Assembly: GCA_048213135.1 (NCBI GenBank)
Contig: PS015223.1
Location: 1 to 34,317, forward strand
From: Reclinomonas americana ATCC 50394
Lineage: Eukaryota
Reading direction: 5' to 3'
Length of the DNA stretch: 34,317 bases
The position numbers were made by a program, and so were the translations under genes. Below are positions 1,995 through 26,346 of this stretch, one piece after another. Below the pieces are notes generated by a model. It ran no database searches. It had not been told where the DNA came from and worked only from the letters and a program-made list of their open reading frames with translations. The stretch's first letter is position 1, and every line of letters starts with the position of its first letter.

Positions 1995-4524
1995 GAATGT
2001 GCTCGGCAGCTTGGTGGCCGACGACGATGTCGACACGAGCAGCATGTCGACGGCAGAGATGGCGGCAGCCGCACTGCTGGCAATCGACTCCGAATCCAGA
2101 ATCGGCATGATAACTGGGTGGTTGCTGTCGGCGACCTTGATGGCCGTCGCAATCGTGTTGATCGACTGGTAAATGCGCAGTCGGTCGCCAGCGGCAAATG
2201 TCGAAGCGAAATTGTCTCCAATGCTCCACGCCAGCAGCGCGGGATGGTCCTTGTAGAGATTCACCACGCTGACCAAGAAGGCAACTTGCGCCGCCTCAGC
2301 ATCGCTGGACGCGCCATCTACGAAAAAAACGATCATCAACACAATGTCAGCATAACCGAAACGGGGTGCAAAAAGTTTGAAACGGACGCAACAAGTGAAG
2401 GGGTCGAAACGACCAGTGGCCTTTTCCGCCTGGAGCTTGAAGCCAACAATGGCGTTCATGCCGAGCTGGTACAAGTTGTCGAGGAACGGTGAGTTCAACT
2501 GGTCCAATCCATAGAGGTAGACCGTGTTGCCGCCAATCGAGCGCAGGAACTGCATGTCGGACTGCGTGACCACACTGGTGCCGCCGCGGATACGCATCTG
2601 GCGTGAACAGCGCGACAGAGTCCATCGCCGCCGCCCGTTGCCATCTTGCGCCACCTGCTGGGTGACTGTGGCCTTGGTGGTGCAGCCACCAGTCTGCGAA
2701 AAGAAAAAGAAGAAAAGGCGGCATGTCAGCAAGCAGTCCACACGAGCAAAGAAGAAGGAGAATGAAAGAGGATCTTTACGCAACGCAAGTGTCGGTAGCC
2801 ACGCAGCGCACGGTGCAGTCGCCCTTGAAACCAGCCGAGCAGGTGGACGAGTAGTAGGCATCAGCTGGACTTGGCTGCGCGACACCACCGGCCGAGGTGA
2901 TGGTGAAGGCCTTGTCGAGGAACACGCCGTTCTTGGTGTCAGCAGCGCGCAGGGTCACCAGCAGATTACCACTATATCGCGTGCCAATCATCAACTGGTT
3001 GCCGGACAAGAAGAAGGCATCGATCGGCTGTTGTGAGCGGATGGAGAAGGTGTGCGTGTCGCCGACATCGTCAATGGCAGAGATGTTGGCAGCCACCGCA
3101 CCCGACAGCGCGGCCGAGGCAATGGAAGTCGTCGACAACACAATGTCGCTCGGCGGGTTGTTAATGGGCAGCTGCAGAACCGTGTCCAGTGACTGACCAG
3201 TGCGGTCAGTGGCGCGGACGCGAATGCGCAGCGGCGTGCTGCGTCCACCAGCCACCGAGACGCCGGCTTTGGTTGACAGCACGCCAGTGGCGGAGGCCAG
3301 CGCAAAGTTGGCATTGTCGGTGTCGCCGGTGCCGGCAACCAGCGTGTAGTTGAATGTGTCGCCCACATTGAGGTCCAGCGCCTGCAGAGTGGCCACCACG
3401 GTGCTGCCAGAGAGCGGCAGAGCCAGTGGCAGCGGGGCCGAGGAGAGCGTCGGCACCACTCGGTACGGCGGCACCGGCACGCCGGGGTCGACCTTGACGG
3501 TGGTTGGCAGATCCGGCTGCACAACAAAACTCTTGTCGATGAACCGACTGGTCACCGAGTCGGTGGCGCGCAGCGAGAGGGTGATGGTCGGGTAAACACC
3601 GGCGGTTGGCGTCGGCACCGTGGCCATCACCAGCTGCGAGCCGCTGAGCGTGAAAATGCCAGCCGGCGACTGCGAGTTGATGAACAGCAGCGCCGTGTCG
3701 CCAACGTCGTCGGCCACCACCACGTTGCCGACAATCATGGTGGCAACCGGCGGCACGGTGTAGTACGGGTAATCGACGGCGATGTTGCTCGGGGCGTTGT
3801 TCACCGGCACTTCGAGGCGCACGTCAACGAACAGACCACTCGAATCTGTGGCGCGCACCATTGCAATCATGGGCGTGCGCTGCTGATTCGGGATGCCGGC
3901 CGGCACGACACGCAGTGTCGCAGTGCCAGAGATGTAAAAGTAGGCGTTGTCGCTGTCGGTGGCGTTGGCGCCGGTAGTCATCGAAAATGTCACCGTGTCC
4001 GCCGTGTTGGGGTCCGTGGCCGTCAGCGCACCAATCACGGTGTTACCAACAACCGGCAGGGCCAGCTTGCCGAGATAGTCGAAACGCAGCGTAATGTTGG
4101 TGGGCGGCATGGACGCTATGAAGGGGGTAAAGTGTGGTAAGCGATAATGGTGCAAAGACGCTCAAGAGGGTTGCAGGCAAACACACACACACACGCACCT
4201 TCCGCAATCGTCATGGTCTTCTCCACAAAGCGACCATTGATCTTATCGGTGGCTCGCACAGTGACGTTGAGGTTGTTGCCAGAGATGGTGGCCGAGTTCA
4301 CCAGCAGCTTGTCCACGTTCAGTGAAAAGGCTCCCGACGGCTGCATGGCCAGCAGCTCAAACTTGTGTGTGTCGCCAGCCGCGTCGACTGCCGACAGCGT
4401 GCCAATAGTGGCGCCGACTGTTGGTGGCAGTGCGTAGCGGTTGGACGTGATCACAATGTCTTGCGGCGCCATGTTGGCTGGTGGATGCACAAGCAGGAAT
4501 GAGTGAGCAGAGAGTGGGAGCAGC

Positions 4525-4575
<51 letters not shown>

Positions 4576-6718
4576 TGGTAGGAACGTAAACGTTGGACGA
4601 AGGAAGNNNNNNNNNNNNNNNNNNNNNNNNNNNNNNNNNNNNNNNNNNNNNNNNNNNNNNNNNNNNNNNNNNNNNNNNNNNNNNNNNNNNNNNNNNNNNN
4701 NNNNNNNNNNNNNNNNNNNNNNNNNNNNNNNNNNNNNNNNNNNNNNNNNNNNNNNNNNNNNNNNNNNNNNNNNNNNNNNNNNNNNNNNNNNNNNNNNNNN
4801 NNNNNNNNNNNNNNNNNCTTGTAGCGAGCGCGAGAAATTCGACGGAATGGTCGACGTGTTCTTCGTGTACAGGCCGTTGCCGGTGATGTTGAAGAAGGCG
4901 TTGTCGGTGTCGCCGGTGCCTGCCACCAGCGAGTATGTGAACTTGTCGACCATGTTCGGATCCGTGGTCGCCAGCGTGCCAATCAGTGTGCCATTCGCCA
5001 CCGGCAGCGGCAGCGGGTACGGGTCGGAGAGAATGGCCAGTGACATGCCAGTGGGCGCCACGTTGGTCTCCAGCAGCGCCAGATCCATGTCGAGCCACAG
5101 CTGACTGAACGTGTTGAGGGTGCGTACGCGCACCGTAACCGTTCCGGAAATGGGTGCGGCTCCAACGCGCAGCTGGTCGTTCTGTGTGCCGGCAAGTACA
5201 ACGGCATTGGCCGGCGTGCACGCCAAGATCGAGTACGTGTGGTTGCCGGGGCGGGTGTCGACCGTGGTCAGTGAGCCAATGAGGTCGCCAGCCGTGGAAG
5301 GGTAAGGGTACCGACTGTTGCTGAGAGTGATGTTGCTGGGTGGCACGGCCTCGAAGAAGGTGAACACGCGCTCCAGGTACATGCTGTTGCCGGGGTCCGT
5401 CACACGAAGGCGGATGGTCACGTCACCCGTGGGTGGCGTGTCAATCACCAGCGTGGAGTTGGAGACCTTGAACGCCCGCAGAGGCGTCTGTGAGGTGATG
5501 GTATACACACTCACATCTCCGGCATCGTCCGTGGAGGCAATGTTGGCCACCCACGCCCCGCTCACCGCCGGACTGCGGTAGAACGTGGTGTCGGCCTGAT
5601 CCACATGAAAGAGAGCAAGGGGGATGAGGGAGAGAGCCGTGAGTGAACAAGAACTGGAGGAGGAGGAAGAAGGAGGGCGGCCATACACACCTTGAGGTCG
5701 GAGGGCGAGTTGTTGACGGGAATCGTCACTGCCTTTTCCAGGAACAAGCCTGTCTGATCGGTGACGCGCAAGCGGATCTGCAGCGGTGGATTCTTAACAC
5801 TGAGATTCGGCAAGCCAGTGCCCGTGGCGGGCAAGTCCAGATTGCGCGTGTTGATCTTGAACAACCCATTGTCACGATCACCGTCACCGGCGACCAATGA
5901 GAAGGTAAAGGTGTCGGTAGGGTTCGGGTCACGAGCGTCAAGCGAGGCCACCGTGGAGCCGGCCGCGACCGGCAACGGCAGCGGCAGCGTGCTATTTGGT
6001 CGCGTGAAGATGAGCTGTGAAGGAGGTTGCGGAGCTGCGCCACGTGACAAATGAAGAGATACTTTTGCTTGAGCAAACAGGTAGAGGTAGGCGCACACTC
6101 TGCAAGTAGACGCAACGAGGCTGCTGATCACACTTGGGTCCCACCATGCCGTTGGTGCACTGGCAATTGTCGCCGGTGCGACCGGTGTGGCAGATGCACT
6201 TGCCGGTGTCGTCGCACTCGCCGAAACCACTGTGTGGAGGGAGCAGGCGTGAGAACAAAAGAAGGGGGATCGAAAACACGAGACAACTGCTGGCAGTGCC
6301 AACGAAACTTGCATGTCTCGACTGGGCGGCACTCGCAGCGTGTGCCGCCGAGGCCGGGAAAGCATGAGCACAGACCACCAACACACGTGCCGCCATTGTT
6401 GCAATCGGCGGCCGTCGTGCAAATGGGTGTGGCAGCATTGGTCTTGACGGCGGTCACTAGCGTACCATCTGCTCCCATCATGGCGGTGTCACCAGATAAG
6501 GGAGCGCTAGCGTTGAAGGCTCGCGCCATGGCGACTGCACAGCTGTGTGTCGTGAAGAAGAAAGAGTGNNNNNNNNNNNNNNNNNNNNNNNNNNNNNNNN
6601 NNNNNNNNNNNNNNNNNNNNNNNNNTTATCCAGCAACGCGCGCGCACACACAAACACACAGACACGCGATGAGGAGTGCGTGAGGTGAGCGAAATTTTGC
6701 AACGGTCACTTTTTTCAT
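1995..6718 (-). CDS. Large secreted or surface protein: putative signal peptide, EGF-like repeats, about 9 cadherin-like repeats, Cys-rich linker and GH2-like TIM-barrel domain (3' end lost in gap)
   Basis: Candidate ATG 6718 gives MKKVTVAKFRSPHALLIACLCAVAMARA. EGF-like segments CNNGGTCVGGLCSCFPGLGGTRC and CNGFGECDDTGKCICHTGRTGDNC lie at about 6120-6425. Repeats such as GTLATTDPNMVDKFTYSLVAGTGDTDNAFFNITG and VRATD..G span about 2890-6035. YKDHPALLAWSIG and IKVADSNHPV (about 2100-2260) match GH2/clan GH-A barrels. Confidence 0.8.
4529..4572 (+). repeat. (AG)n microsatellite in an intron of the cadherin-repeat gene
   Basis: About 22 perfect AG units next to an assembly gap. Confidence 0.95.
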
Positions 6719-8693: not shown

Positions 8694-9299
8694 TGTCTGC
8701 AAAAACAAATTTGATCGGAAAATTCTGTCGATCCGACAGTAAGGACGTCGTCGCACACTCTCGCTCCTTCTCCCATGCGCAGCTTGTAGCCGACGGCACG
8801 TACACACAAGCGCACCAGCGCACCACACTCGTTCTGGCACACATCGCCGACGTCGCGACAAAAAGGACGACGCATGGGACACAGCGATTGTCACGCAAAT
8901 CACACACACTTGCAGAATGGCCNNNNNNNNNNNNNNNNNNNNNNNNNNNNNNNNNNNNNNNNNNNNNNNNNNNNNNNNNNNNNNNNNNNNNNNNNNNNNN
9001 NNNNNNNNNNNNNNNNNNNNNNNNNNNNNNNNNNNNNNNNNNNNNNNNNNNNNNNNNNNNNNNNNNNNNNNNNNNNNNNNNNNNNNNNNNNNNNNNNNNN
9101 NNNNNNNNNNNNNNNNNNNNNNNNNNNNNNNNNNNNNNNNNNNNNNNNNNNNNNNNNNNNNNNNNNNNNNNNNNNNNNNNNNNNNNNNNNNNNNNNNNNN
9201 NNNNNNNNNNNNNNNNNNNNNNNNNNNNNNNNNNNNNNNNNNNNNNNNNNNNNNNNNNNNNNNNNNNNNNNNNNNNNNNNNNNNNNNNNNNNNNNNNNN

Positions 9300-9575
9300 G
9301 GAGGGAAGGAGGAGAGGAGAAGGAGAGACGAAGGAGAGGAGAAGGAGAGGAGAAGGAGAGGCGAAGGAGAGGAGAAGGAGAGGAGAAGGAGAGGAGAAGG
9401 AGAGGAGAAGGCGAGGAGAAGGCGAGGAGAACGAGAGGAGAACGAGAGGAGAACGAGAGGAGAAGGCGAGGAGAAGGAGAGGAGAAGGCGAGGAGAAGGA
9501 GAGGAGAAGGCGAGGAGAAGGAGAGGAGAAGGCGAGGAGAAGGAGAGGAGAGGGAGAGGAGAAGGAGAGAGGAAA
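9300..9575 (+). repeat. Tandem 11-bp purine repeat (GGAGAGGAGAA)n with variants; belongs to SF1 intron 1 once the contig is flipped
   Basis: Directly visible; it is the reverse complement of the repeat at 10529-10700. Confidence 0.95.
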
Positions 9576-9766
9576 GGCAGGGAGGGGAGGGTATGTCCAA
9601 CTTGTCGGTGAGCGATGTCGTTGTAAGGAAAAGGCTGAGCAGCGATGCTGAGTACGAGGCGATCCCAGCATTACATGCTGGTGCAGACGTGTGCATGCGT
9701 CTCTCTCCCCTCTTTTCTCTTCCCTCACTACCTCTCTCTCTCTCCCACCCCCTCGTTCCACGCAAC

Positions 9767-9878
9767 TCATAAACGCCTGCTGCGCCTCCTCCGTCATCCC
9801 ATACGGAATGTGCGGCGGCACTCCCGGAATCACAGTCTTCTGCTCCGGTCCCCAACGACGACGCCGCGCCTGTGACAT
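9767..9878 (-). CDS. SF1: Splicing factor 1 / branchpoint-binding protein, exon 1 (on an apparently inverted contig)
   Basis: MSQARRRRWGPEQKTVIPGVPPHIPYGMTEEAQQAFM matches the SF1 N-terminus (ULM 'RW' followed by KTVIPG.P..IP.G.T.EQ..A). The phase-1 donor at 9766 fits the phase-1 acceptor at 10771 (A+TC = Ile). Confidence 0.9.
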
Positions 9879-10528
9879 GTGCTCGCGACGAATGCGCTCC
9901 TTTTCTGCACACACACACATGCAAACACAAAGTAAGAGACAAAGAGAAGAAGAAGAGAAGACAGAGAATGCAGACACGAAACCTTCATCAATCGGCTTCT
10001 TCGNNNNNNNNNNNNNNNNNNNNNNNNNNNNNNNNNNNNNNNNNNNNNNNNNNNNNNNNNNNNNNNNNNNNNNNNNNNNNNNNNNNNNNNNNNNNNNNNN
10101 NNNNNNNNNNNNNNNNNNNNNNNNNNNNNNNNNNNNNNNNNNNNNNNNNNNNNNNNNNNNNNNNNNNNNNNNNNNNNNNNNNNNNNNNNNNNNNNNNNNN
10201 NNNNNNNNNNNNNNNNNNNNNNNNNNNNNNNNNNNNNNNNNNNNNNNNNNNNNNNNNNNNNNNNNNNNNNNNNNNNNNNNNNNNNNNNNNNNNNNNNNNN
10301 NNNNNNNNNNNNNNNNNNNNNNNNNNNNNNNNNNNNNNNNNNNNNNNNNNNNNNNNNNNNNNNNNNNNNNNNNNNNNNNNNNNNNNNNNNNNNNNNNNNN
10401 NNNNNNNNNNNNNNNNNNNNNNNNNNNNNNNNNNNNNNNNNNNNNNNNNNNNNNNNNNNNNNNNNNNNNNNNNNNNNNNNNNNNNNNNNNNNNNNNNNNN
10501 NNNNNNNNNNNNNNNNNNNNNNNNNNNN

Positions 10529-10700
10529 CCTTCCCTCCTTCTCCTCTCCTTCTCCTCTCCTTCTCCTCTCCTTCTCCTCTCCTTCTCCTCTCCTTCGTCT
10601 CTCCTTCTCCTCTCCTTCTCCTCTCCTTCTCCTCTCCTCTCCCTCCCTCCTCCCCTCTCCTTCTCCTCTCCTTCTCCTCTCCTTCTCCTCTCCTCCTCCC
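10529..10700 (+). repeat. Tandem 11-bp pyrimidine repeat (TTCTCCTCTCC)n in SF1 intron 1
   Basis: Directly visible. Confidence 0.95.
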
Positions 10701-10771
10701 GTCCCTTCCATCCTTCTCTCCCTTCCCTCTTCTGCGTCCCTCATCCCTTCGTCTCACCATTCTCGCTGCAG

Positions 10772-12349
10772 TCCGCGCTCGCCTGGAGGAAATCGGCCGC
10801 AAGGTCAACCTGGGCGCGTATGAGGAGGAAGAGATGCAGCGGTGAGTCTTGTGTCTCCTGCATGTTTTCGCTTATTTGTCAGCATGTCCTCTCATCTCTG
10901 TCGACGCGCAGTGAGCCATCGCCAGACTACGTTTACGATCGGTACGGCAAGCGCCAGAACACGCGTGATCAGGTCGTCAAGGATCGCCTCAACATTGAAC
11001 GACGTGATCTGGTCAAGAAAGCCATGCAAGTGTGGCCGCAGTTCAGAGTTGCGTGATGTTTTTGTTGATCGCGTGTGTGGTTGTTTGATGTTTGAAAATG
11101 GATGCTCGTTCCTTGCAGCCGCCGGTTGACATGAAGCCGGAGAACCTGCGCATCACGAAGAAGATCCCCATTCCGTACAAGAAGTACCCGGACTACAATT
11201 TTATTGGTGCGTGATGGCACTGTCGTTTTCTCACCCGCGGCCTCTCACTGACACACTTTCTGCCTCAACAGGTTTGATTATCGGTCCGCGTGGCAACACT
11301 CAGAAGCGCCTGACGCGTGAAACCGGTTGCAACATTGCCATTCGTGGCAAGGGTTCCACAAAGGAGGGCAGAGTTGCGTCGATCTCTATTGCTCACTGCC
11401 CACTCTCTGTCTCACTCCCTCTCTCTATCCACAGTCCAATCGCCCGCAGCCAGGCGATGATGAAGATTTGCACGTGGCTGTGACCGGTGACACCATGGAG
11501 CAAGTCGATAAGGTTTTGTGATTATTTTCCTCTCCTCCTTCCATCCCCGTTCACTCACTCACTCCTTCCTCCTTCCTCCTCCTCACCCCAGGCCGTCAAG
11601 ATGATTGAAAAGCTCTTGGTGCCCATCGACGACGACCTGAACGACTGGAAGCGCAAGCAGCTGGAGGAGCTGGCCAAGATCAATGGTAGGCACACACAAA
11701 TTAGCTCTCCTCCCTTGCTTCTTTTCTTTCTCACACTGCTCCTCCCCCAGGCACATTGCGCGACGATCGACAGGAGGGCGGCTCCGGCAGGCATACCGAC
11801 CAGTACTTTGCTGGTGGCGCTGGCATGGCCGGTGGCGCCGGTGCTGCCGGTGGCCGTGGCAACTCGCGCATGGATGAAGAGTATCAGGATTTCATGGCGG
11901 AAATCGAAGGCAAGGATCGCTCCGCGCGCGCAGCACCACCGCCACCTCCACCACCGCCATCAGCCGGCGGTTACGGTGGCGGCATGCTACCGGCACCTGC
12001 CATGGCGCCCGGTATGGCTCCTGGCCTGGCACCGGGCATGGCTCCCAGCTACTATCCGCCACCCGCGGCAGCCTACCCCGGCTACCCACCACCGCCGCCG
12101 CCGGCCGCGTACGGTGGATATCCGGGCTATGGTGTGCCGGTACCTCCAGCTCCTGGTGCTCCGTGGGGCGCGGTAAGTCTCTCTTTCTGTTTGTGTTGAA
12201 TCCTTTTTGTGGCTGTCGTTTGTTCACCAGTGATTCTTGATTCATTCGTGCAGCCGGCACCGTGGGGTGATCCGTCACAGCAGCAGCAGCAGCAGCAACA
12301 ACAACCGTGGGCCACGCAATCATACGACCAACGGCCTCCGGGATTGTAA
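10772..12349 (+). CDS. SF1: Splicing factor 1 / BBP, exons 2-9 (helix-hairpin, KH-QUA2, Pro-rich tail)
   Basis: Spliced frame gives [40 protein letters not shown]...[36 protein letters not shown] and [12 protein letters not shown]. Stop TAA 12347-12349. Confidence 0.95.
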
Positions 12350-14623: not shown

Positions 14624-14693
14624 GATATACACACGCGTATGCTTTGCAAAGGGCGGGGTCGTCCTTCGTTCCTCTTGTCCTCCGGGAAAACCA
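14624..14693. promoter_or_regulatory. Candidate 70-bp bidirectional promoter between NELF-C/D and GH30, with a GC box
   Basis: Divergent ATGs at 14623 (-) and 14694 (+); GGGCGGGG at 14651-14658. Confidence 0.4.
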
Positions 14694-17199
14694 ATGCATC
14701 GACGCGCGTGGGGTCTCCTGCTCTTGTTGCTGCTTCTTCTGGCACTGTCTGTCAGCAGCGCACTTGCCACATGGACAGCGCCTCCACAAGCTGTGCAAGT
14801 TGCGTGGCAGAGAACGAGCGGAACATACTCTCGGTGTGACTCTGACGCTGACTGTGTCTCTCTCACACGCATGCAGGTGGTGCAGAGTGCGCGCGACACT
14901 GGTGATCGATGGGCCACCAAACGTTACACCCTCCCGCGCACTGTTCTCTGCTCGGCCTTCCTCTCTCATTGTCTCTGCATCAGCTTCTATCCCATTTGTT
15001 CCGGCGCATCAGTTCCTGCTGGAGGATGTGGCAGCTTCGGAGGCGCCGCTGCAGCAACAGCAACTGTTGACAGTGAACATCACTGATCGGTATCAGCCGC
15101 TGAAGGGCTTTGGTGGAGCCATCACGGACGCGGTGGCGCACATTTTTGATGAGATGTCGGCGGAGCTGCAGGCGGAGGTGAGAGAGTGCAGAGGGAGTGA
15201 GGGGGGCTGTGAAGGACAAACTGATGTGATGTCGCGTCTTCGTGCAGGCGCTCGACCACATCTGGGGCGACAGGTGTGTCATTCTCTTGTCATGAACGTG
15301 TACATGGTATTAACATTGTTTGCGCGTTCGTATTATGCTCTCAGTGGACTCAAGTATGTCTTCACGCGGCTGACGATCGGGAGCTGCGACTTTTCCGTCG
15401 GCAGCTATTCGTACGACGACAGCGAGGGCGACTACAACATGGAGCACTTCTCGGTGGCTCACGACGAAGAGGTGTGTGCGACAGATCAAGTCGCGAGTTT
15501 CTTTTCCCTCACGGTTGTCGCAGAAAATCATCCCGCTCATTCACCGCGCCATGGACACGGCGGCCAAGTACAACCGCACCATCACCTTCTTGTCCACACC
15601 GTGGTCGCCGCCGGGTACGAGCCATTCGCTTCGTGGGTTTATTAACTGCGCTGACTCGTGTGTTTGCCTGTCTTGCAGCGTGGATGAAGCGCAATGTGAG
15701 CAATTATCCCTCTCGCTGCTACTCTTTTCCTTCGCGAACCTGACAATGTTCCGCAGCACGACATGCGCAACTCTGACAAGCCTGGACTGATTCAAGACCC
15801 AAAGATCTTCTCCGCCTGGGCCTTGTACCTGTCCAAGTTGAGTGCGCGTATCCTCTTGTTCGTCTCGCCGCAGCAGCAAATAAAACTCATCGCATGGTCA
15901 CTCGCAGGTACGTCACCGAGTACGGGAAGCGAGGTGTGCAAATCTCGGCCATCACTGTGGAGGTTGGTCTCATTTTGCACAATGCTGATATCGGTTCACT
16001 CACCAAATTACCGCCGACGCAGAACGAGCCGCACGTGTGTGAGCAGGCGAGTCTCCTTGATCTCTTTGACGATCTCTTCTCCGTTGCTAATATCCACCCA
16101 GTTCCTCGTCACCTACGAGTGCTGCTGTTTCAATGCCACGGAAGAAGCAAGCTTCCTGGCTGGCTATCTTGGTCCGCGACTCCGCGCCGACCACCCCTCT
16201 CTCCAGATCTACATCTACGATGATCAGAAGCCTCAGATGCCCGACTGTTGCGTCCCCTCCCTTCTTCAGTTTCGTCGCCATCTGCTGTGCCAACGACAAC
16301 ACGGCTGTGCAGACATCGCCTCTGTGATGAGCGATGCGATCGCGCGTCAGTATGGTTTGTTCAGCACACGTCGCTGTTGTTCGTCCAACGCTCTGTTGCT
16401 GACATTGCTGTTGTTGTAGTGGACGGAGGTACGAAGAGTGTGGTACGAGGTAACATTTCCTTCCTCGTTATCTCATTGCTGCGTTTCTCGCAGTGGCGTT
16501 TCACTGGTATGGCGGCAATCTGAAAAACGTTGCGTGCCTCCTCTCCTTGACCACGTGCGCGTCCATCTCCAACCTCCCTCTTGTGCAGTACCAGTACCTG
16601 GAGCAGGTGTACAAGAGCTTCCCGCAGCTGCCGCTCTACGCCTCGGAGGCCACACTGGAGGCACACTGGAAGCAGACGGATCACTGGGCGCAAGGCAGCA
16701 TGTGCGCACTACTGTGACAGATGTGCTCCACTCACTCAGTTGCACTCACTCCGCCCTCGATTATGGCAGGTATGCCGTGGATATTATCGGCGACATGAAT
16801 GCGCACACACGAATCTGGGTCGAGTGGAATGTGCTGCTTGACTCGGAAGGCGGACCGCAACATGCCCTCGGACCGTGCGACTCGCCGCTCCGCTACGATC
16901 GCGTCACCAAGAAACTGGAGTATGGCGAGCAGTACTGGCACATGGGTCACTTTTCGCGACACATACCGCCGGGCTCGGTACGCCTCGGCCTCAACCCCGT
17001 GCAAGATCCGCTGGGATCATTCATGGCGCTGGCGGCTGCCACGCCTGCTGGCGACGTTGTCGTCGTCGTGCTCAACCGCGGCAACGACCAGGTGCAGTTC
17101 GGGCTGCAGCTCGGCAACTACGTCGCTCCCATCACCATCCCGGCGCATGCCATTCAGACACTCACCATTCCGGCAGCTGCCGTCTCTCGGCAAATGTAA
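14694..17199 (+). CDS. Glycoside hydrolase family 30 (glucosylceramidase-like), secreted or lysosomal; about 16 exons
   Basis: Signal peptide [25 protein letters not shown]. Motifs YQPLKGFGGAITDA, RLTIGSCDFS, STPWSPPAWMK, acid/base TVENEP, YVDGVAFHWY, nucleophile YASEA, WVEWNVLLDSEGGP and MGHFSRHIPPGS. Stop TAA at 17199. Confidence 0.95.
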
Positions 17200-20300: not shown

Positions 20301-20788
20301 TGAGCAATGCAGAGACTCAAAAGAGAGACAAAGAGAGAGAGCAAAAAGCACACCATCATAGTAGCGAATGGCCTCGCGACCCGAATCACGGTCGAGAGTC
20401 ACTTCAATGGGCTGCATCACAGAGTGTGTATCTGTGTGTGTTAGTGCACGCGCGCATACACACGAGGAGAGAGAAGACCAAGAAGAAAAAAGTCACCTCG
20501 CGAATGTGCGCATAAGGCCTGCATGCAATCAGTGTGTGTGAGGAATACCAATCATGATGCACACACACGCGGAAAAAACGACGCAACAGCTCAAGCACGA
20601 GGGCCATGGTGTACTGCGCACACACATCATGTGAGAGACTTGTGTGTTTACGTGCTCTCTCTGTGAATGCACACCTTGCTGGGCCACATAGGCGGTGCCA
20701 CTGCAGCAGCATCGGCCTCGGGGGCAAGCACGGCCGCTGCAACAAGCAGCAACAGAGCGGCGACAAGGAGAGCACTCACTCGGCGCAT
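17313..20788 (-). CDS. Papain-family (C1A) cysteine protease of the 26/29-kDa / CfaD type (N-terminal extension, I29 propeptide, catalytic domain); 27 exons
   Basis: Signal peptide from ATG 20788. GYNVIGGSHYDEY marks the 26/29-kDa family. ERFNIN-like EYTQRRANFERNMRLINEHN. Catalytic-domain motifs FDWR, PVRDQGVCGSCWAFS, LDHAVLVVGYG, YWIVQNSWSTHWGDDGY and NNCGIATTPNFP. Stop TAA 17313-17315. Confidence 0.95.
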
Positions 20789-20878
20789 GACAGCGGAGGA
20801 AAAATAAAAGTGAGAAAAGAGTCAGTCAAGTGGATTGAATTCATTGGATGCTTTCTTCCTTCTCCTCTCTCCTCTCGC

Positions 20879-23471
20879 TCAGTCCTGCTCGCCCATTTCA
20901 CTCATTGGTCGCTCCTCCAGTGCGGCCTCGGCGGCAGCGGCCTCAGCAGCGGCAATTGCGGCTTGTTCCTCTTCCCAGAGAGATACGGCACGCTCGCGGG
21001 CGACCTCGATTTCCGATTCTTCGACCTCGCTGGCGTTCTGTCGAAGATAGAGGTTAGCAGCCCGTCACAGTAGAAGAGAGAGATATATAGATGGCGCGGT
21101 GGTTGTCGCTTCTCACCAGCATCCTTATGTTGGGACCGGGCGTCGTGACGACGATGCCTTGCGGGTCAAAGAGCATGGCGTGAATGTCGCCAGGTGGGAA
21201 CTCCTCCAGATTCTCTGTGCTCACCGAGTGGCGGGTTAGGGATGCTGGCGCGCATCTGTTGTCCGCTCACTACTTGTGCTCACCTCTGGCGTCCAGCTCG
21301 GTCAGGCTCGGCAGGTGTCTCAGATGCGCAAACTCCTTGATGCTGGCCAGGTGGTTGTCGCACAGATTCAGCGAGGTGAGGTGCACGAGGCCGGCGGTGG
21401 CAAACTCGGCAAGCGACGAAATTCTGTTGGTGTTGAGGGTGAGGCTGCGCACGGACTGGAAGCGAGAGAGGCCGTCCAGCTTGAAAATGGCGTTGCTGGC
21501 CAGGCTCATGGTCTCCAGCACCGGCGAGTCCAGTTTCGGTAGTTGTGACAGGGCGTTGGTGCTGAGATCGAGGTGTCGTACAGACAGCAGGCCCGTCATG
21601 TCAAAGATCATGATGGAATTCTCTGTCGCCAGCGATGGTGAGGCGGGGAAGAGAGCGAAAGTGGAAGAGACAGGTGACTGACCAGAGAGGATTAGGGTTT
21701 GCAGATTGGCGCAGGCGGCTTGACCGCGCATGTAACGCAGACTATTGTCATGCATGTCCAGGTGTTCAAGTGATTCTGTGGGGAGGGGGGGGGGAGGTGT
21801 TCAGTGAGCACAACACTCGTATCTCTTTCACACACACACTCGCTTCTGTCTCTCTCTCTCTCTCACACACACTTGTTGTTGATAGCGCACCTCTTTGCAT
21901 CAGCGGCGTAATGTCGTGCACAATGTTGTGTTGCGCGGTGCAGCTGAGCAGGTGTGGCAGCTCGCCGAGGGGAGACACATCGCGAATGGCATTCTTCGAA
22001 ATGTTCACGTGCAACAGCGTCGACATGCGCGCCGTGCCACCCAAGTCGAGGATGCCAGCGTCGGCCAGGTCCAGTTGAGAGAAGCCGTAGTTTTCGCCGT
22101 CGGGTAGCAGCCGGATCTGCCATGCAACAACAACATTTTCAGAGAGCGAACACTTCCACCCTATTCTTGTGAGGGGTCGACGCAACGACGCTCAGTGCAT
22201 TGCACAGCTTCTCCTCGCTGCAGGGCTCGCCAGAAGGAAAGTCGGCCTCCACCACTTGTTGCATGACACGCATCAGGTCGTCAATGGTCCGACCCGGCGC
22301 CGGTTCCGACACACTGTGCAGCACCCAATCGATGCCCTCGCGGTACACCTTGCACAGCAGCAGGCCTGTGTCGTGGTGAGTCGGGTGAACACGAATGCGC
22401 GTGCACAGAGCATGTCAGCGCGAACCTGTGTGCGGACCCGCCGCATCCACCGACATCCACCACACGGGCTTGTCGTTCTTCGAGTCCAGCACACGACAGT
22501 GCGCCGACCGAACGTGCTCGAATGACACGCCCGAGAAGCTGTTCAGCACAATAAAGACCGCCTGTGTGCATGCAGACCCGAGTGTGAACGAACGCGGTGG
22601 TAGGGGGCATCACACCGCGCATACTGCAACGCGCAACGCAACATGCACACCGGCCGGCACCAAATCAAAATCGACCATCACCGTCTCATCGTCGCCATCG
22701 CCCTCGCCCGTGCGGTTATCGCCCGAGTGCACAATCGATCCATTGTCGTTGCGCAATTTGCGGAACCACACCGACTCTTGCGGCTCACCATTACGCGAAA
22801 ACGTGCCTGGGCGGTCACAAACGAAATTGAGTAAACGCATCGTCGTCGTCGCGGAGGCGGACATGCAAACTGCGCAACAGCACGACACGTCGAGATCGAC
22901 CGCTCCCAGTCCCACATGCTCGTCCATGTCCCATCCTACACAACACAGCTACATAAACAACAGACGCTCGGTCGCTGCGGGAAGGCGCAGCAGCAGCATA
23001 CCACATCCAAATTTCTGAACAACCGAACATGCCAAGAGGGATCAGTGAGTCCCACGGTGGCCACACGCACACACGCACACAAAGACAAACAGGGAGAGAG
23101 GAGGCTCACCAGTTTGCGTCGCGCTCCCAGTCGAACTCTATCCCAGCACAAAAACGCACAAGTTACATATGCAATAAAAACAACCCACTCGTCATCATCA
23201 ATCATCAAATCAAACGCAACGATGCTCCTCGATGCAACGACACCGCCTGCTGCCGCAACGCCCACCGTTCATCCGATGGATTGCCCGACATGGGCGACGG
23301 CGCCGATGAAGGCGCAGACGACTCCCCGCCCTCCTCCGCCACATGAATGCCCAGTCGACCGCCGCTGCCTCCCACACTGCTCCCACCCTCCTCTGCGTCA
23401 GCACCACCACCACCACCACGCGCAGAGGCAATGGCAATGTCAATGTCCATTCCACGCGCACTCAGATCCAT
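20879..23471 (-). CDS. Fusion protein: TerD (Ca2+-binding stress) domain + LRRC23/LRGUK-like leucine-rich repeats + acidic tail; 12 exons
   Basis: TerD motifs KLKFGCGWD, VDLDVSC, SIVHSGDNRTGEGDGDDETVMVDF, VLNSFSG and LLCKVYREG..W. These are followed in the same exon by PCSEEKLCNALSV, then YGFSQLDLADAGILDL...HVNISKNAIRDVSPLGELPHLL and SDS22-like LRRs. Stop TGA 20879-20881. Confidence 0.85.
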
Positions 23472-23734
23472 CTTGCGTGAGTTTCTTCGATTTTGTAATG
23501 AGTGGCCGTTTTTGTGCGCGAGCCGGTGCGGACAGTTGCGCACTGTCCCACACTGGCTCTCATTGCACACACACTTTTTCCACATCGCCTCCACTGCGCG
23601 TGCCTCGTCTCTTTATTTTTTGTGTGTCTGTGTGATCTCTCTCTCTCGTGTGTGCGCGCGTATAGTGTGTCGCAGTGAGTGTTAGTGTTTGTGTGTGTTT
23701 TTTTTCAGCAGTGTCTTGTGTGCGATTCGGAGGA

Positions 23735-26055
23735 ATGGCCGAGTTTGACAACCCACTTGCGCGTCGAGTGTTGCGTCATCACACGCACACACGCGCACAC
23801 ATGAGGCACACACGCAGAGAGAGAGAAAGATAGACACGTCGAAGTGACACAATACCAACACACACACACACACTTCACACAAACCGTTCCTTTTCGTGCC
23901 GACAGACACATGCACTCACACACACTCACTCTCTTGCTCACTCTCTTGCTCACTCTCTTGTTCTTCTCTCCAGGCATGAGCAGTTGAGTCGACAGAATGA
24001 GCAACTGAGGGCCCAACAGAGCGAGCTGGACGACCACACCGAGTGGGTGCGTCAGCAGCAGGTGCCACAGGCGCCACTGAGTGCGCGCAGTGGTGGATCA
24101 TTAAAGCAACAACAACAGCAACAACACGGTTGCGTGGATTCTCTCTCTCTCAGCACACAGCACATGTGTCATCTTACTGGATCTCGATCGATGCAGATGG
24201 AGAGAGCGATGGCAGTGGATCGCCACTGGCAGCAGCAGCAGGTGGTGCTGCGGCGAGCAGTGTGTCGCCGGCGCCACGTCGCAGCCATAGCACGGGCGGG
24301 ACGCGTCCTCCAGTTGCGTTTCTCCACAGAGCGGGCCCGCCTAATGCGATGCTCACTCACACGCGCGCGCGCGCGTCACAGATTGAGGAGATCCTGCTGA
24401 ACAAGGGCAAGGAGTACAAGGAGAAGCTGGAGCGTCTGCGCGCTGAGGAGCTGGCGCGACAGCAGGCGGAGGTCACGGGCACGCCGTCGATTGCGCGCTT
24501 GCACACCGTGTCGTATGATCACTCCAAGCCGGTGGAGGAGCGGCTGCTGGAGATGGCGGCCAAGCGGCGTGAGATGCGGGAGCAAAAGGAGAAGGAGAAG
24601 GTGGAGGAGCCGGATCCAGAGCTCACGTTTAAGCCGCGCATCTCGGAGGCCTCCAAGAAGCGCCACTATGAGGGCGTGGAGCAGCACTTGTACTATCATT
24701 GGGTGCGTCTTTTTTTTCCCCTCCTCGTACTCCCCCTTTCTCCTTCTCGCTCACCTCTGCGCGCACGCATTCNNNNNNNNNNNNNNNNNNNNNNNNNNNN
24801 NNNNNNNNNNNNNNNNNNNNNNNNNNNNNNNNNNNNNNNNNNNNNNNNNNNNNNNNNNNNNNNNNNNNNNNNNNNNNNNNNNNNNNNNNNNNNNNNNNNN
24901 NNNNNNNNNNNNNNNNNNNNNNNNNNNNNNNNNNNNNNNNNNNNNNNNNNNNNNNNNNNNNNNNNNNNNNNNNNNNNNNNNNNNNNNNNNNNNNNNNNNN
25001 NNNNNNNNNNNNNNNNNNNNNNNNNNNNNNNNNNNNNNNNNNNNNNNNNNNNNNNNNNNNNNNNNNNNNNCCACACGTGGTGTGTGTGGAAGTTGGAAGT
25101 TGGAAGTTGACGAATCCTTATTGTTGTGCAGCCGACCACTGCGCAGGAGCGCCTGTTGCGCCACACGGCGTCGTCAGAGGCCGCTCGGTCACCCACCGCT
25201 GCCGCTGCACCGGGTGGCAGTCCGCAAAAGGGCGACGATGCCATGTTCCGGCCGCAGATCAACTCCAACAGCCGCGAGATGGAGAGGCGCACGGGCCCGC
25301 GCACTGATCGCAATCTGGCGCTGTTTGAGCTGGTTTGTACCTGTGTTTTCTTTCTCTCTTTCTCATTGGCACTCAAGTTTCTCTTTCGCAGAGCAAGCGC
25401 AAGCGCGAAGCTCAGGAGCAGCAGAACCGCCAGCAGGCGATCGAGGAGAAGGAGCTGGAGGAGTGCACGTTCTCGCCCAAGATTCGCAAGCCGCGTGGCG
25501 GGTTCGTCTTCAGCCACCCCCTGTTCCTCCTCCCTCGTGCAGCTTTCTTAGGCCCTCTCTTGTGTTCCTCGCGCAGTGGTAACCTGGCCGGCAGCGTTGT
25601 CGACCGTGCGCATCAGTGGGCCAAGAATCGCCAGAGCCGCATACAGAGTGAGCAGGATTCGCGCGCACAGGAGGAGCTCAAGGAGTGCACGTTTACGCCC
25701 AAGATTTCGGTGGGGAACGCTGTCGCTCATGAACGAATGCGTATGTCTACAGCGTTCTCACCCTCTCTCCCTTCACCTACAGGGACCTCCGAGGACACCG
25801 GTCAGTGGCAGTCTGACGCCGCGCAGCCCATTGGCCAGCGCCGTGAGCGAGGTGGCGCCGTCGCCATCGGCGGGCTCGGTGGCACCGGGCGTGGATGAGT
25901 ACGTGGAGCGCGTGCGCAGCGCGCGCAAGAAGAAGGAGGAGCTGGAAAAGTCGACATTTGTGTCGGGCGCCAACTGGCAGCCGCGCCTCACCAAGGGCAA
26001 GGCACCGAAGCTCGGCCGCGAGGCACACGATGTGAGCATCAAGTCGCTGAAGAGG
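23735..26055 (+). CDS. Charged coiled-coil protein with repeated (E)xTFxPxI motifs, probably cytoskeletal; incomplete (internal and 3' gaps)
   Basis: Motifs ELTFKPRIS, MFRPQINSNS, ECTFSPKI and ECTFTPKIS sit among E/K/R-rich helices, with exons bounded by GT/AG. Start ATG 23735 is tentative. Confidence 0.7.
23925..23960 (+). repeat. 3 x 12-bp tandem repeat CTCACTCTCTTG in an intron pyrimidine tract
   Basis: Directly visible. Confidence 0.85.
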
Positions 26056-26346
26056 GTACGTTGATATGCGGAAAGGGGGGGACAGGGGGGGGGGAAGGAA
26101 ATCTGTGATCTCATATTTGNNNNNNNNNNNNNNNNNNNNNNNNNNNNNNNNNNNNNNNNNNNNNNNNNNNNNNNNNNNNNNNNNNNNNNNNNNNNNNNNN
26201 NNNNNNNNNNNNNNNNNNNNNNNNNNNNNNNNNNNNNNNNNNNNNNNNNNNNNNNNNNNNNNNNNNNNNNNNNNNNNNNNNNNNNNNNNNNNNNNNNNNN
26301 NNNNNNNNNNNNNNNNNNNNNNNNNNNNNNNNNNNNNNNNNNNNNN

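What the first reader, a model, noticed from the sequence alone, without database searches (positions are those of the whole stretch)
20879..23471. TerD Ca2+-binding domain fused to an LRRC23/LRGUK-like axonemal LRR protein
Seen: exon 22187-22365 encodes both the TerD C-terminus (LLCKVYREGIDWVLHSVSEPAPGRTIDDL) and the start of the LRR module (PCSEEKLCNALSV), so the fusion does not depend on a guessed long-range splice. The acidic loop HSGDNRTGEGDGDDE is intact. Known: TerD domains bind Ca2+ in bacterial stress systems and occur in Dictyostelium CABP1; LRRC23 is a radial spoke 3 component and LRGUK is its flagellar relative. Inference: a possible Ca2+ sensor attached to a flagellar radial-spoke protein, an architecture I do not recognise.
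Basis: partly seen in the sequence, partly recalled or inferred. Interest (0 to 1): 0.72.

Follow-up and report, generated by a model that had tools for sequence, protein, structure and literature searches.

The report
TerD calcium domain fused to LRRC23-like protein
An intron-rich gene of an unidentified protist joins a bacterial-type calcium-binding TerD domain to a complete leucine-rich-repeat module that most resembles the cilium radial-spoke protein LRRC23, a combination not found elsewhere, though its place in a flagellum is still only a guess.

Summary
A 12-exon, 580-aa minus-strand gene (23471 to 20879, all introns GT-AG, 60-115 nt) encodes a low-complexity N-terminus, one full TerD domain with the GDNRTGEGDGDDE loop intact, and a 320-aa LRR module. 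Homology to TerD relatives or to LRRC23 runs across eight of the eleven exon junctions; a ninth rests on one pairwise match. Exon 7 carries both the TerD C-terminus and the start of the LRRC23-like block: its last 21 residues add 6.4 bits to an LRRC23 profile alignment (0 of 500 shuffles reach this).

LRRC23 is the best whole-module match (100 bits, one nearly gap-free block). The pre-repeat cap adds 11 bits (0 of 300 shuffles), and the repeat order is collinear (p about 6e-4). Against this, generic LRR proteins score up to 95 bits, the tail shows no specific signal, the tree is unresolved (AU p 0.26), and the gene is not LRGUK (no guanylate kinase domain).

No TerD+LRR protein appeared among 150 TerD relatives, 47 LRR relatives or 120 LRRC23 proteins. 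There is no transcript evidence, no orthologue and no genome, so a flagellar role remains inference.

The parts
23221..23471 (-). Exon 1: ATG at 23471, a Gly/Ser/Ala/Glu-rich N-terminus (aa 1-78) and the first TerD strand (from aa 79)
   Evidence: donor GTTGCG, phase 2. TerD homology crosses into this exon: the best relative, P0049, aligns from model aa 79, and 79 of 245 domain alignments start at aa 83 or earlier. No Pfam family at E<=1.
23110..23137 (-). Exon 2 (28 nt), TerD N-terminal strand
   Evidence: continuous TerD alignment across the junction.
23002..23014 (-). Exon 3 (13-nt micro-exon), encodes KFGC before GWD
   Evidence: It is needed to keep the frame, and it completes the conserved 'l.fG.gWD' stretch aligned to P0049.
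22879..22935 (-). Exon 4, TerD (GWDMD...DLDVSC)
22643..22806 (-). Exon 5, TerD core with the acidic Ca2+-binding loop GDNRTGEGDGDDE at 22723-22685
   Evidence: Pfam TerD E 1.8e-12. PDB 2kxt E 1.6e-10 with an identical loop. Coordinates.
22426..22561 (-). Exon 6, TerD
   Evidence: alignment continuous through it.
22187..22365 (-). Exon 7, the junction exon: TerD C-terminus (to about aa 260) plus the first 16 residues of the LRRC23-like cap (aa 261-276)
   Evidence: Its last 21 residues add 6.4 bits to the LRRC23 profile alignment, and 0 of 500 shuffles reach that score.
22117..22186 (-). Intron 7 (70 nt, GTTGCG...CAG), the splice on which the fusion depends
   Evidence: The same donor hexamer is used by introns 1, 4 and 5, and all three of those junctions are crossed by TerD alignments. 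If unspliced, the TerD frame stops after 15 more codons. The exon-8 frame read upstream lowers the LRRC23 score to 94.8, against 96.3 without it.
21891..22116 (-). Exon 8: rest of the cap and LRR 1-3
   Evidence: PDB: internalin and Roco 22-residue LRRs; LRRC23 9d2f_B E 1.2e-6. LRRC23 profile.
21683..21775 (-). Exon 9: LRR 4 and part of LRR 5
   Evidence: alignment continuous across both junctions.
21284..21622 (-). Exon 10: LRR 5-9 and the start of the last repeat
   Evidence: Pfam LRR_4 8.8e-16, LRR_8 1.1e-13, LRR_9 3.4e-9.
21117..21214 (-). Exon 11: LRRcap-like segment (aa 496-528)
   Evidence: Aligned only in pairwise comparisons with P0014 and P0025, at low confidence. This is the least supported exon.
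20879..21037 (-). Exon 12: Glu/Ala-rich acidic tail (15 E and 14 A of 52 residues, net charge -13) and the TGA stop at 20881-20879
   Evidence: P0025 aligns across the exon 11/12 junction.

Best explanation
This is one protein-coding gene of an intron-rich, GC-rich eukaryote. Its product has four parts: (i) a disordered Gly/Ser/Ala/Glu-rich N-terminus; (ii) a single TerD beta-sandwich whose two-Ca2+-binding acidic loop is intact; (iii) directly after it, a complete LRRC23-type module with a pre-repeat cap, nine to ten 21-25-residue SDS22-class repeats and an LRRcap-like segment; (iv) a strongly acidic Glu/Ala tail.

Shown here: the exon structure, both domains, their continuity in one frame, and the fact that LRRC23 is the best whole-module match.

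Inferred: the TerD domain binds Ca2+, and the LRR module is a protein-docking scaffold. If the module keeps the role of LRRC23, it sits in the head of radial spoke 3, facing the central pair. The TerD domain then occupies the place of the poly-Glu N-terminal extension of animal LRRC23. Ca2+ binding to its acidic loop would change the charge or conformation at the spoke head, giving a built-in Ca2+ input to spoke-central pair signalling.
For: Gene model: 12 exons, 1743 nt, and 11 GT-AG introns of 60-115 nt.

TerD: Pfam E 1.8e-12. The loop is identical to 2kxt. The spliced TerD region matches 149 of 150 closest TerD representatives; the best match has iE 1.3e-33 over model aa 79-255 with no break at the junctions between exons 1 and 7.

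Fusion: the LRRC23-profile alignment starts at aa 262, inside exon 7. The exon-7 residues add 6.4 bits, reached by 0 of 500 shuffles. The exon-8 frame has no ATG before the Met (aa 307) at the end of repeat 1, so a separate LRR gene would lack the cap and nearly all of that repeat.

LRRC23 likeness: best single-domain phmmer hit among 47 LRR relatives (79.4 bits against 58.7 or less). The profile gives 100.2 bits in one block with two small indels. Only the model and two ~330-aa protist proteins, of 47 rows, reach profile positions 39 or earlier. The cap adds 11.2 bits, 0 of 300 shuffles. Collinear repeat sum is 119.0 against a permutation mean of 78.6, sd 11.9; 209 of 362,880 permutations reach it. 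The module is 320 aa, against 290-370 aa for the family proteins used.

Literature: an acidic tail is also described for Tetrahymena Lrrc23A/B (PMC12399478, passages). LRRC23 is an RS3-head protein (PMC10721216, abstract and passages). TerD domains occur on flagellum-attachment-zone proteins FAZ28 and FAZ30 (PMC10953051, one passage).
Against: There is no transcript evidence and no orthologue of the fusion. The organism is unknown, so it is not even known to be flagellated.

Generic multi-LRR proteins score up to 95.5 bits on the LRRC23 profile. A stand-alone 39-column cap profile does not find the model's cap. The native register is the best one for only 3 of 9 repeats. The tail adds no LRRC23-specific score (74 of 300 shuffles reach it).

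In the ML tree the module is a 3.3-long branch in a 48/83 polytomy, outside the metazoan LRRC23 clade, which has 90/89 support. For exons 9-10 alone, PDB chains of LGR4, LRRC32 and PPP1R7 score as well as or better than LRRC23. The protein atlas returns only generic LRR clusters. The competitor families LRGUK, SDS22, DRC3, LRRC34 and CEP97 could not be put in the tree.
Confidence: 0.55

Rival explanations
1. The gene is a real TerD-LRR fusion, but the LRR module is just a divergent SDS22-class protein-binding scaffold with no radial-spoke role. The protein would be a cytosolic or membrane-proximal Ca2+-responsive adaptor, like the C2-TerD-TerD and tandem-TerD proteins of other protists.
For: The closest TerD relatives are tandem-TerD proteins, and 23 of 59 scanned carry a C2 domain, which suggests Ca2+/membrane biology and nothing axonemal. 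Generic LRR proteins reach 95.5 bits on the LRRC23 profile. The tree is unresolved. There is no LRRC23-specific tail signal. The atlas is generic.
Against: The cap and the collinearity are specific to LRRC23-type proteins in my sample. The module has the size and layout of a whole LRRC23 protein. The AU test does not reject a clade with LRRC23 (p 0.257).
Confidence: 0.28
2. These are two separate genes or transcripts: a TerD-only protein ending at the stop at 22141-22139 (intron 7 retained) and an LRR protein starting downstream. The fusion would then be an artefact of my splice model and the reader's.
For: If unspliced, the TerD frame closes 15 codons after exon 7. Spacers in this genome can be tiny: the next gene's ATG at 20788 lies 90 nt after this gene's stop. 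No cDNA is available. Retention of intron 7 as a minor isoform cannot be excluded.
Against: The first ATG in the exon-8 frame (aa 307) lies at the end of repeat 1, so a stand-alone LRR protein would lack the cap and nearly all of that repeat. LRRC23 homology continues upstream of the splice into exon 7, adding 6.4 bits that 0 of 500 shuffles reach. The donor GTTGCG is the hexamer used at three junctions that TerD alignments cross. The frame is preserved across a 70-nt intron, a length typical of this gene.
Confidence: 0.12
3. The locus is a pseudogene, an assembly chimera or contaminating bacterial DNA.
For: The window is a gapped draft with 9 runs of N. TerD is mainly a bacterial family.
Against: There is no N in 20700-23600. 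All 12 exons are open with consistent phases. Six spliceosomal-type introns interrupt the TerD domain, and its closest relatives are eukaryotic: Thecamonas, Flabellula and Heterosigma.
Confidence: 0.03

Closest known systems
LRRC23 (Ciona LRR37; radial spoke 3 head protein of animals and Tetrahymena)
   Same: A pre-repeat cap, nine SDS22-class repeats in the same order, and a similar module length (320 aa against about 310-345). The C-terminal end is acidic. It is the best whole-module match. Acidic C-termini are noted for Tetrahymena Lrrc23A/B (PMC12399478).
   Different: A TerD domain and a low-complexity region replace the poly-Glu N-terminus seen in the family consensus. Identity is only about 29-33% by blastp. 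The C-terminal 60 profile positions are not matched. Tree placement is unresolved. Localisation is unknown.
Eukaryotic tandem-TerD 'stress proteins' and C2-TerD-TerD proteins (for example the Thecamonas trahens stress protein, P0048)
   Same: The TerD domain is closest to these: up to 60% identity over the core, with the full domain aligned. They share the same Ca2+-loop motif.
   Different: Those proteins carry 2-6 TerD domains, and 23 of 59 scanned also have C2. None of the 59 scanned by Pfam has LRRs, and none of the 150 compared locally matches the LRR half. This gene has a single TerD.
Bacterial TerD (K. pneumoniae TerD, PDB 2kxt) and Dictyostelium CABP1
   Same: Same fold family, with an identical 13-residue acidic loop. 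Ca2+ binding by TerD, and TerD's similarity to the Dictyostelium cAMP-binding protein, are as cited in PMC8123226 (passages).
   Different: Those are stand-alone ~190-aa proteins of ter operons, or TerD-only proteins. Here the domain is one module of a 580-aa spliced eukaryotic protein.
Trypanosomatid FAZ28/FAZ30 and Toxoplasma apex proteins with TerD domains
   Same: They are TerD domains on cytoskeletal proteins associated with the flagellum or apical complex (PMC10953051, one passage; PMC7951837, table passage).
   Different: No LRR is reported with them in the passages I saw. I did not compare their sequences.
LRGUK and SDS22/PPP1R7
   Same: The same 22-residue LRR class. PPP1R7 scores E 3.3e-10 on exons 9-10 and LRGUK E 0.0019 on exon 8.
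   Different: The gene has no guanylate kinase domain. PPP1R7 gives no match to exon 8 at E<=1. Neither covers the whole module as LRRC23 does.

Membership tests
TerD (Pfam PF02342) | Match to the family profile above the curated cut-off | tested here: met
   E 1.8e-12 and 47.5 bits against a cut-off of 25.3, on frame 22610-22948.
TerD (Pfam PF02342) | Full-length domain, not a fragment | tested here: met
   Spliced aa 79-255 align to TerD domain 1 of P0049 (residues 30-215) with iE 1.3e-33. 149 of 150 representatives are matched.
TerD (Pfam PF02342) | Acidic Ca2+-binding loop GDN(R/L)TGEGDGDDE | tested here: met
   Identical over 13 residues to the solved K. pneumoniae TerD 2kxt; located at 22723-22685. 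That this loop is the Ca2+ site is partly recalled: PMC8123226 only says TerD binds Ca2+.
TerD (Pfam PF02342) | Ca2+ binding | not testable with these tools
   Needs recombinant protein.
LRRC23 | Collinear match of the repeat array to a family profile | tested here: met
   100.2 bits, with profile 38-270 aligned to aa 262-494 in one block. Collinear sum is 119.0 bits, reached by 209 of 362,880 permutations. However, the native register is best for only 3 of 9 repeats, and generic LRR proteins reach 95.5 bits.
LRRC23 | Family-specific pre-repeat cap (profile positions 38-66) | tested here: met
   It adds 11.2 bits in the anchored alignment, and 0 of 300 shuffles reach this. Only the model, P0025 and P0028, of 47 rows, start at profile position 39 or earlier. 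Caveat: a stand-alone cap profile finds nothing.
LRRC23 | C-terminal region after the repeats (profile 271-333). A C-terminal truncation of LRRC23 abolishes RSPH9 binding and flagellar localisation (PMC10721216). | tested here: not met
   The profile alignment stops at position 270. The tail adds 0.7 bits, and 74 of 300 shuffles reach the native score. Only the general layout is shared: an LRRcap-like segment and an acidic tail.
LRRC23 | Groups with LRRC23 in a phylogeny | tested here: inconclusive
   Long branch (3.33) in a 48/83 polytomy, outside the metazoan clade with 90/89 support. The constrained clade costs 1.70 lnL, p-AU 0.257. LRGUK, PPP1R7, DRC3, LRRC34 and the Tetrahymena Lrrc23 proteins were not in the tree.
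LRRC23 | Location in the radial spoke 3 head | not testable with these tools
   The organism is unknown, no genome is held and no RNA run is listed.
LRGUK | Guanylate kinase domain C-terminal to the LRRs | tested here: not met
   None of the 8 exon-bearing frames matches any kinase family at E<=1. The protein ends 92 residues after the last repeat.
SDS22 / PPP1R7 | Whole-array similarity to PPP1R7 | tested here: not met
   PPP1R7 matches exons 9-10 (E 3.3e-10) but not exon 8 at E<=1. The LRR class is shared, but membership is not shown.

The most novel reading that the evidence does not exclude
The fusion is a 'Rosetta stone'. On this reading, TerD is a Ca2+ sensor of the motile-cilium machinery, here built directly into the radial spoke 3 head through an LRRC23 orthologue. 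In other protists the free tandem-TerD and C2-TerD proteins would act with LRRC23/RS3 or neighbouring flagellar cytoskeleton. That would give a Ca2+ input to spoke-central pair signalling that does not rely on EF-hand or calmodulin proteins.
Probability: 0.15. Interest if true: 0.75.

Novelty: new variant of a known kind. Interest (0 to 1): 0.45.

Why it matters
How Ca2+ changes ciliary waveform through the radial spokes and central pair is still poorly understood, and the composition of radial spoke 3 has only recently been worked out. A natural fusion of a Ca2+-binding TerD domain to an LRRC23-type spoke-head scaffold would point to a concrete, testable link between the little-studied eukaryotic TerD proteins and flagellar regulation. 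Passages in two papers already place TerD proteins at the trypanosomatid flagellum attachment zone and the Toxoplasma apex. If the LRR module turns out to be a generic adaptor, the gene is simply a lineage-specific domain shuffle of modest interest.

Tried and rejected
- **Whole genome:** none is held, so I could not look for a second LRRC23, other TerD genes or axonemal genes.
- **Earlier scan notes:** nothing on this genome or sequence. The word search gave only unrelated bacterial and archaeal items.
- **Junction exon against the 5.8-billion-protein index, longer proteins:** 6 candidates, none scored.
- **Metagenome scans:** exon 10 matched 432 pattern stretches with no relative. Exon 7 gave one locus, L001, which is a 17-21-residue match with no TerD or LRR nearby, so it is spurious.
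- **Protein atlas on exons 10 and 8:** only generic LRR clusters, none named LRRC23.
- **Stand-alone cap profile:** it did not detect the model's cap.
- **ML tree and AU test:** uninformative.
- **Neighbouring coiled-coil gene against PDB, as a clue to whether the organism is ciliated:** no match.
- **Literature:** 'TerD' with 'leucine-rich' as whole words gave 5 papers, none describing such a fusion judging from titles and the one I opened. 'TerD domain'/'eukaryotes'/'leucine-rich repeat' and 'TerD'/'tellurite'/'eukaryotic'/'domain architectures' gave nothing relevant. 'TerD'/'C2 domain'/'eukaryotes' gave one unrelated paper. The mixed cilia search listed no paper containing TerD among its 12 rows.
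- **Not used:** structure and complex prediction, because the spliced protein cannot be handed to those tools and single exon frames would add nothing.
Full report
**What is there.** The region lies in a GC-rich (0.54-0.59) stretch of a gapped eukaryotic draft. Reading the minus strand, I built a 12-exon model by hand and checked it by script. The exons are 23471-23221, 23137-23110, 23014-23002, 22935-22879, 22806-22643, 22561-22426, 22365-22187, 22116-21891, 21775-21683, 21622-21284, 21214-21117 and 21037-20879. The CDS is 1743 nt and encodes 580 aa plus a stop. All 11 introns are GT-AG and 60-115 nt long, and the donor GTTGCG is used four times (introns 1, 4, 5, 7).

**The TerD half.**
- Pfam gives TerD at E 1.8e-12 (47.5 bits, cut-off 25.3) on frame 22610-22948.
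- Two solved TerD structures match. The 13-residue acidic loop is identical to that of K. pneumoniae TerD 2kxt.
- The exhaustive HMMER search with that frame found 968 representatives at E<=0.001, 58 at E<=1e-10 and none at E<=1e-30. The top ones are long proteins.
- Of the 10 I looked up, the named ones are a Thecamonas trahens 'stress protein', a Flabellula baltica transcript, a Heterosigma akashiwo protein and a JGI 'stress response protein SCP2'.
- I gave Pfam 59 of the 150 listed: the best 39 plus 20 longer ones from lower in the list. TerD was found in 58, C2 in 23, a RanBP zinc finger in 2 and LRRs in none.
- Locally, the spliced TerD region (aa 85-262) matched 149 of 150. The LRR half and the N-terminus matched 0 of 150.
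- With 30 more upstream residues added, the best relative (P0049) aligns from model aa 79 to aa 255 at iE 1.3e-33, without a break at any junction. Of 245 strong domain alignments, 79 begin in exon-1-encoded residues.

Exons 1-7 are therefore supported by homology. The domain is full-length, carries six introns, and is closest to eukaryotic TerD proteins, not bacterial ones.

**The LRR half.**
- Pfam LRR_4, LRR_8 and LRR_9 are above cut-off on frame 21270-21800. No other family, in particular no kinase, appears in any of the 8 exon-bearing frames.
- As single exons the repeats look generic. Exon 10 against longer proteins gave 47 hits, none with TerD. The best are giant multi-LRR proteins, a protein named LRRC23 (Geodia, P0014) ranks 14th at E 5.7e-9, and a CEP97-named fragment scores 2e-9.
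- In the PDB, exons 9-10 hit LGR4 (4.9e-18), LRRC32, PPP1R7 (3.3e-10) and LRRC23 (2.7e-9). Exon 8 hits internalin A and a Roco protein through several repeats, then LRRC23 (1.2e-6) and LRGUK (0.0019). PPP1R7 does not appear at E<=1.
- The protein atlas returned only generic LRR clusters.

**Whole-module comparison.** Using the spliced LRR half in local scripts changes the picture.
- Among the 47 relatives, P0014 gives the best single alignment: 79.4 bits with model aa 272-559 against 33-307 of its 310 residues. The next best is 58.7 bits.
- I collected the family with P0014. This gave 193 hits, of which 120 were listed; the named ones are almost all LRRC23, and none has TerD.
- I built a profile from 109 of them. 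It aligns to the model in one block with two small indels: profile 38-270 against aa 262-494, 100.2 bits.
- The control matters here. Two ~330-aa protist proteins score 126-132 bits, but generic multi-LRR proteins reach 95.5 bits, so the repeats alone do not discriminate.
- What does discriminate is the pre-repeat cap. Only the model and those two protist proteins, of 47 rows, reach profile positions 39 or earlier; the other 44 start at 67 or later.
- The native cap adds 11.2 bits, against 0.25 +/- 1.3 for shuffled caps, and 0 of 300 shuffles reach it.
- A stand-alone 39-column cap profile, however, finds nothing.
- The tail after aa 494 adds nothing specific: 74 of 300 shuffles reach the native score.
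- Repeat by repeat, the native register is the best placement for 3 of 9 repeats. The collinear sum of 119.0 bits is reached by only 209 of 362,880 permutations, whose mean is 78.6 with sd 11.9.
- Pairwise, the model aligns to chimpanzee LRRC23 (aa 263-494 against 46-277) and to the Ciona LRRC23 entry (261-497 against 29-265) almost without gaps.

**Tree.** I built an ML tree from 18 LRRC23 proteins, the two protist proteins, 14 best-matching segments of other LRR proteins and the model. It puts the model on a 3.33-long branch in a 48/83 polytomy, outside the metazoan LRRC23 clade (90/89). Forcing model+LRRC23 into one clade costs 1.70 lnL, with p-AU 0.257. The tree neither supports nor rejects the grouping. 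It also lacks the key competitor families, which I could no longer fetch.

**Is it one gene?**
- The LRRC23-like block begins inside exon 7, the exon that also encodes the last TerD strands.
- The 21 exon-7 residues before the splice add 6.4 bits, and 0 of 500 shuffles reach that. Reading the unspliced sequence upstream of exon 8 in its own frame gives 94.8 bits, less than leaving it out (96.3).
- The exon-8 frame has no ATG before the Met (aa 307) at the end of repeat 1, so a separate LRR gene would lack the cap and nearly all of that repeat.
- Intron 7 uses the same donor hexamer as three junctions that TerD alignments cross.

Against this:
- If unspliced, the TerD frame closes after 15 codons, so a TerD-only isoform is possible.
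- Spacers here can be tiny: the next gene's ATG is 90 nt beyond this stop.
- There is no transcript evidence. No RNA run was listed and no genome is held.
- No relative of the fusion turned up in the junction-exon search or in two metagenome scans.

**Mechanism.**
- Shown: the architecture is a disordered N-terminus, a TerD domain with an intact loop, an LRRC23-type cap and repeats, an LRRcap-like segment, and a tail of net charge -13.
- From the literature:
  - LRRC23 is an RS3-head component. A C-terminal truncation abolishes RSPH9 binding and flagellar localisation. Orthologues are reported in organisms with an RS3 head and not in Chlamydomonas (PMC10721216, abstract and passages).
  - Tetrahymena Lrrc23A/B have Glu-rich C-termini (PMC12399478, passages).
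  - TerD binds Ca2+, and Dictyostelium CABP1 is TerD-like (as cited in PMC8123226, passages).
  - TerD domains occur in FAZ28/FAZ30 (PMC10953051, one passage) and in two Toxoplasma apex proteins (PMC7951837, table passage).
- Inferred: this is a Ca2+-responsive LRR scaffold, most plausibly at the spoke head, with TerD in the place of the poly-Glu N-terminus of the family consensus. That calmodulin and EF-hand proteins are the known spoke Ca2+ sensors is recalled, not checked.

**Verdict.** The fusion is probably real (about 0.85). The module is LRRC23-like, but orthology is not established. It is not LRGUK. A flagellar role is a hypothesis. I found no other instance of this architecture, but only one copy in one unidentified organism, so I rate it a new variant of known kinds and of moderate interest.

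Noticed in passing
window 2776-6488 (-): Long open frames made of repeated ~100-aa modules, each with a 'LVAG(T/D)GD(T/R)DN..F' motif. They are followed by Cys-rich, EGF-like stretches (6128-6625) and interrupted by N gaps. There was no Pfam family at E<=0.001 for the two frames scanned (2776-4161 and 5562-6488). This is possibly a large extracellular adhesion-type protein of an undescribed repeat family.
   Followed up: partly
window 20788 downstream to about 17394 (-): The next gene on the same strand starts only 90 nt after the TerD-LRR stop, with a signal-peptide-like N-terminus. It carries a cathepsin propeptide inhibitor I29 domain (E 8.8e-11) and papain-like sequence. The genome is very compact here.
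   Followed up: partly
window 14626-17199 (+): A glycosyl hydrolase family 30 (glucosylceramidase-like) gene, split by introns (Pfam Glyco_hydro_30 and Glyco_hydro_30C).
   Followed up: no
window 11130-12200 (+): A KH domain of the BBP/SF1 type (PF22675, E 2.3e-10) followed by a Pro/Gly/Ala-rich region. This is probably the branch-point-binding splicing factor.
   Followed up: no
window 24000-26100 (+): A divergently oriented coiled-coil gene with a recurring 'ECTF(S/T)PKI' motif. The two frames tried had no PDB match at E<=0.1, and 25329-25898 had no Pfam family at E<=0.001.
   Followed up: partly
window 8900-10800: Glu/Arg/Gly-rich 'EEKERRRRGEGE'-type tandem repeats on both sides of two N gaps (8923-9299 and 10004-10528). 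This is a low-complexity repeat region that the assembly could not close.
   Followed up: no
proteins P0053-P0184 (relatives, not the window): C2-TerD-TerD is a common architecture among the closest eukaryotic and metagenomic TerD relatives (23 of 59 scanned). Two carry RanBP-type zinc fingers. One literature search for TerD with C2 domain and eukaryotes found one unrelated paper.
   Followed up: partly
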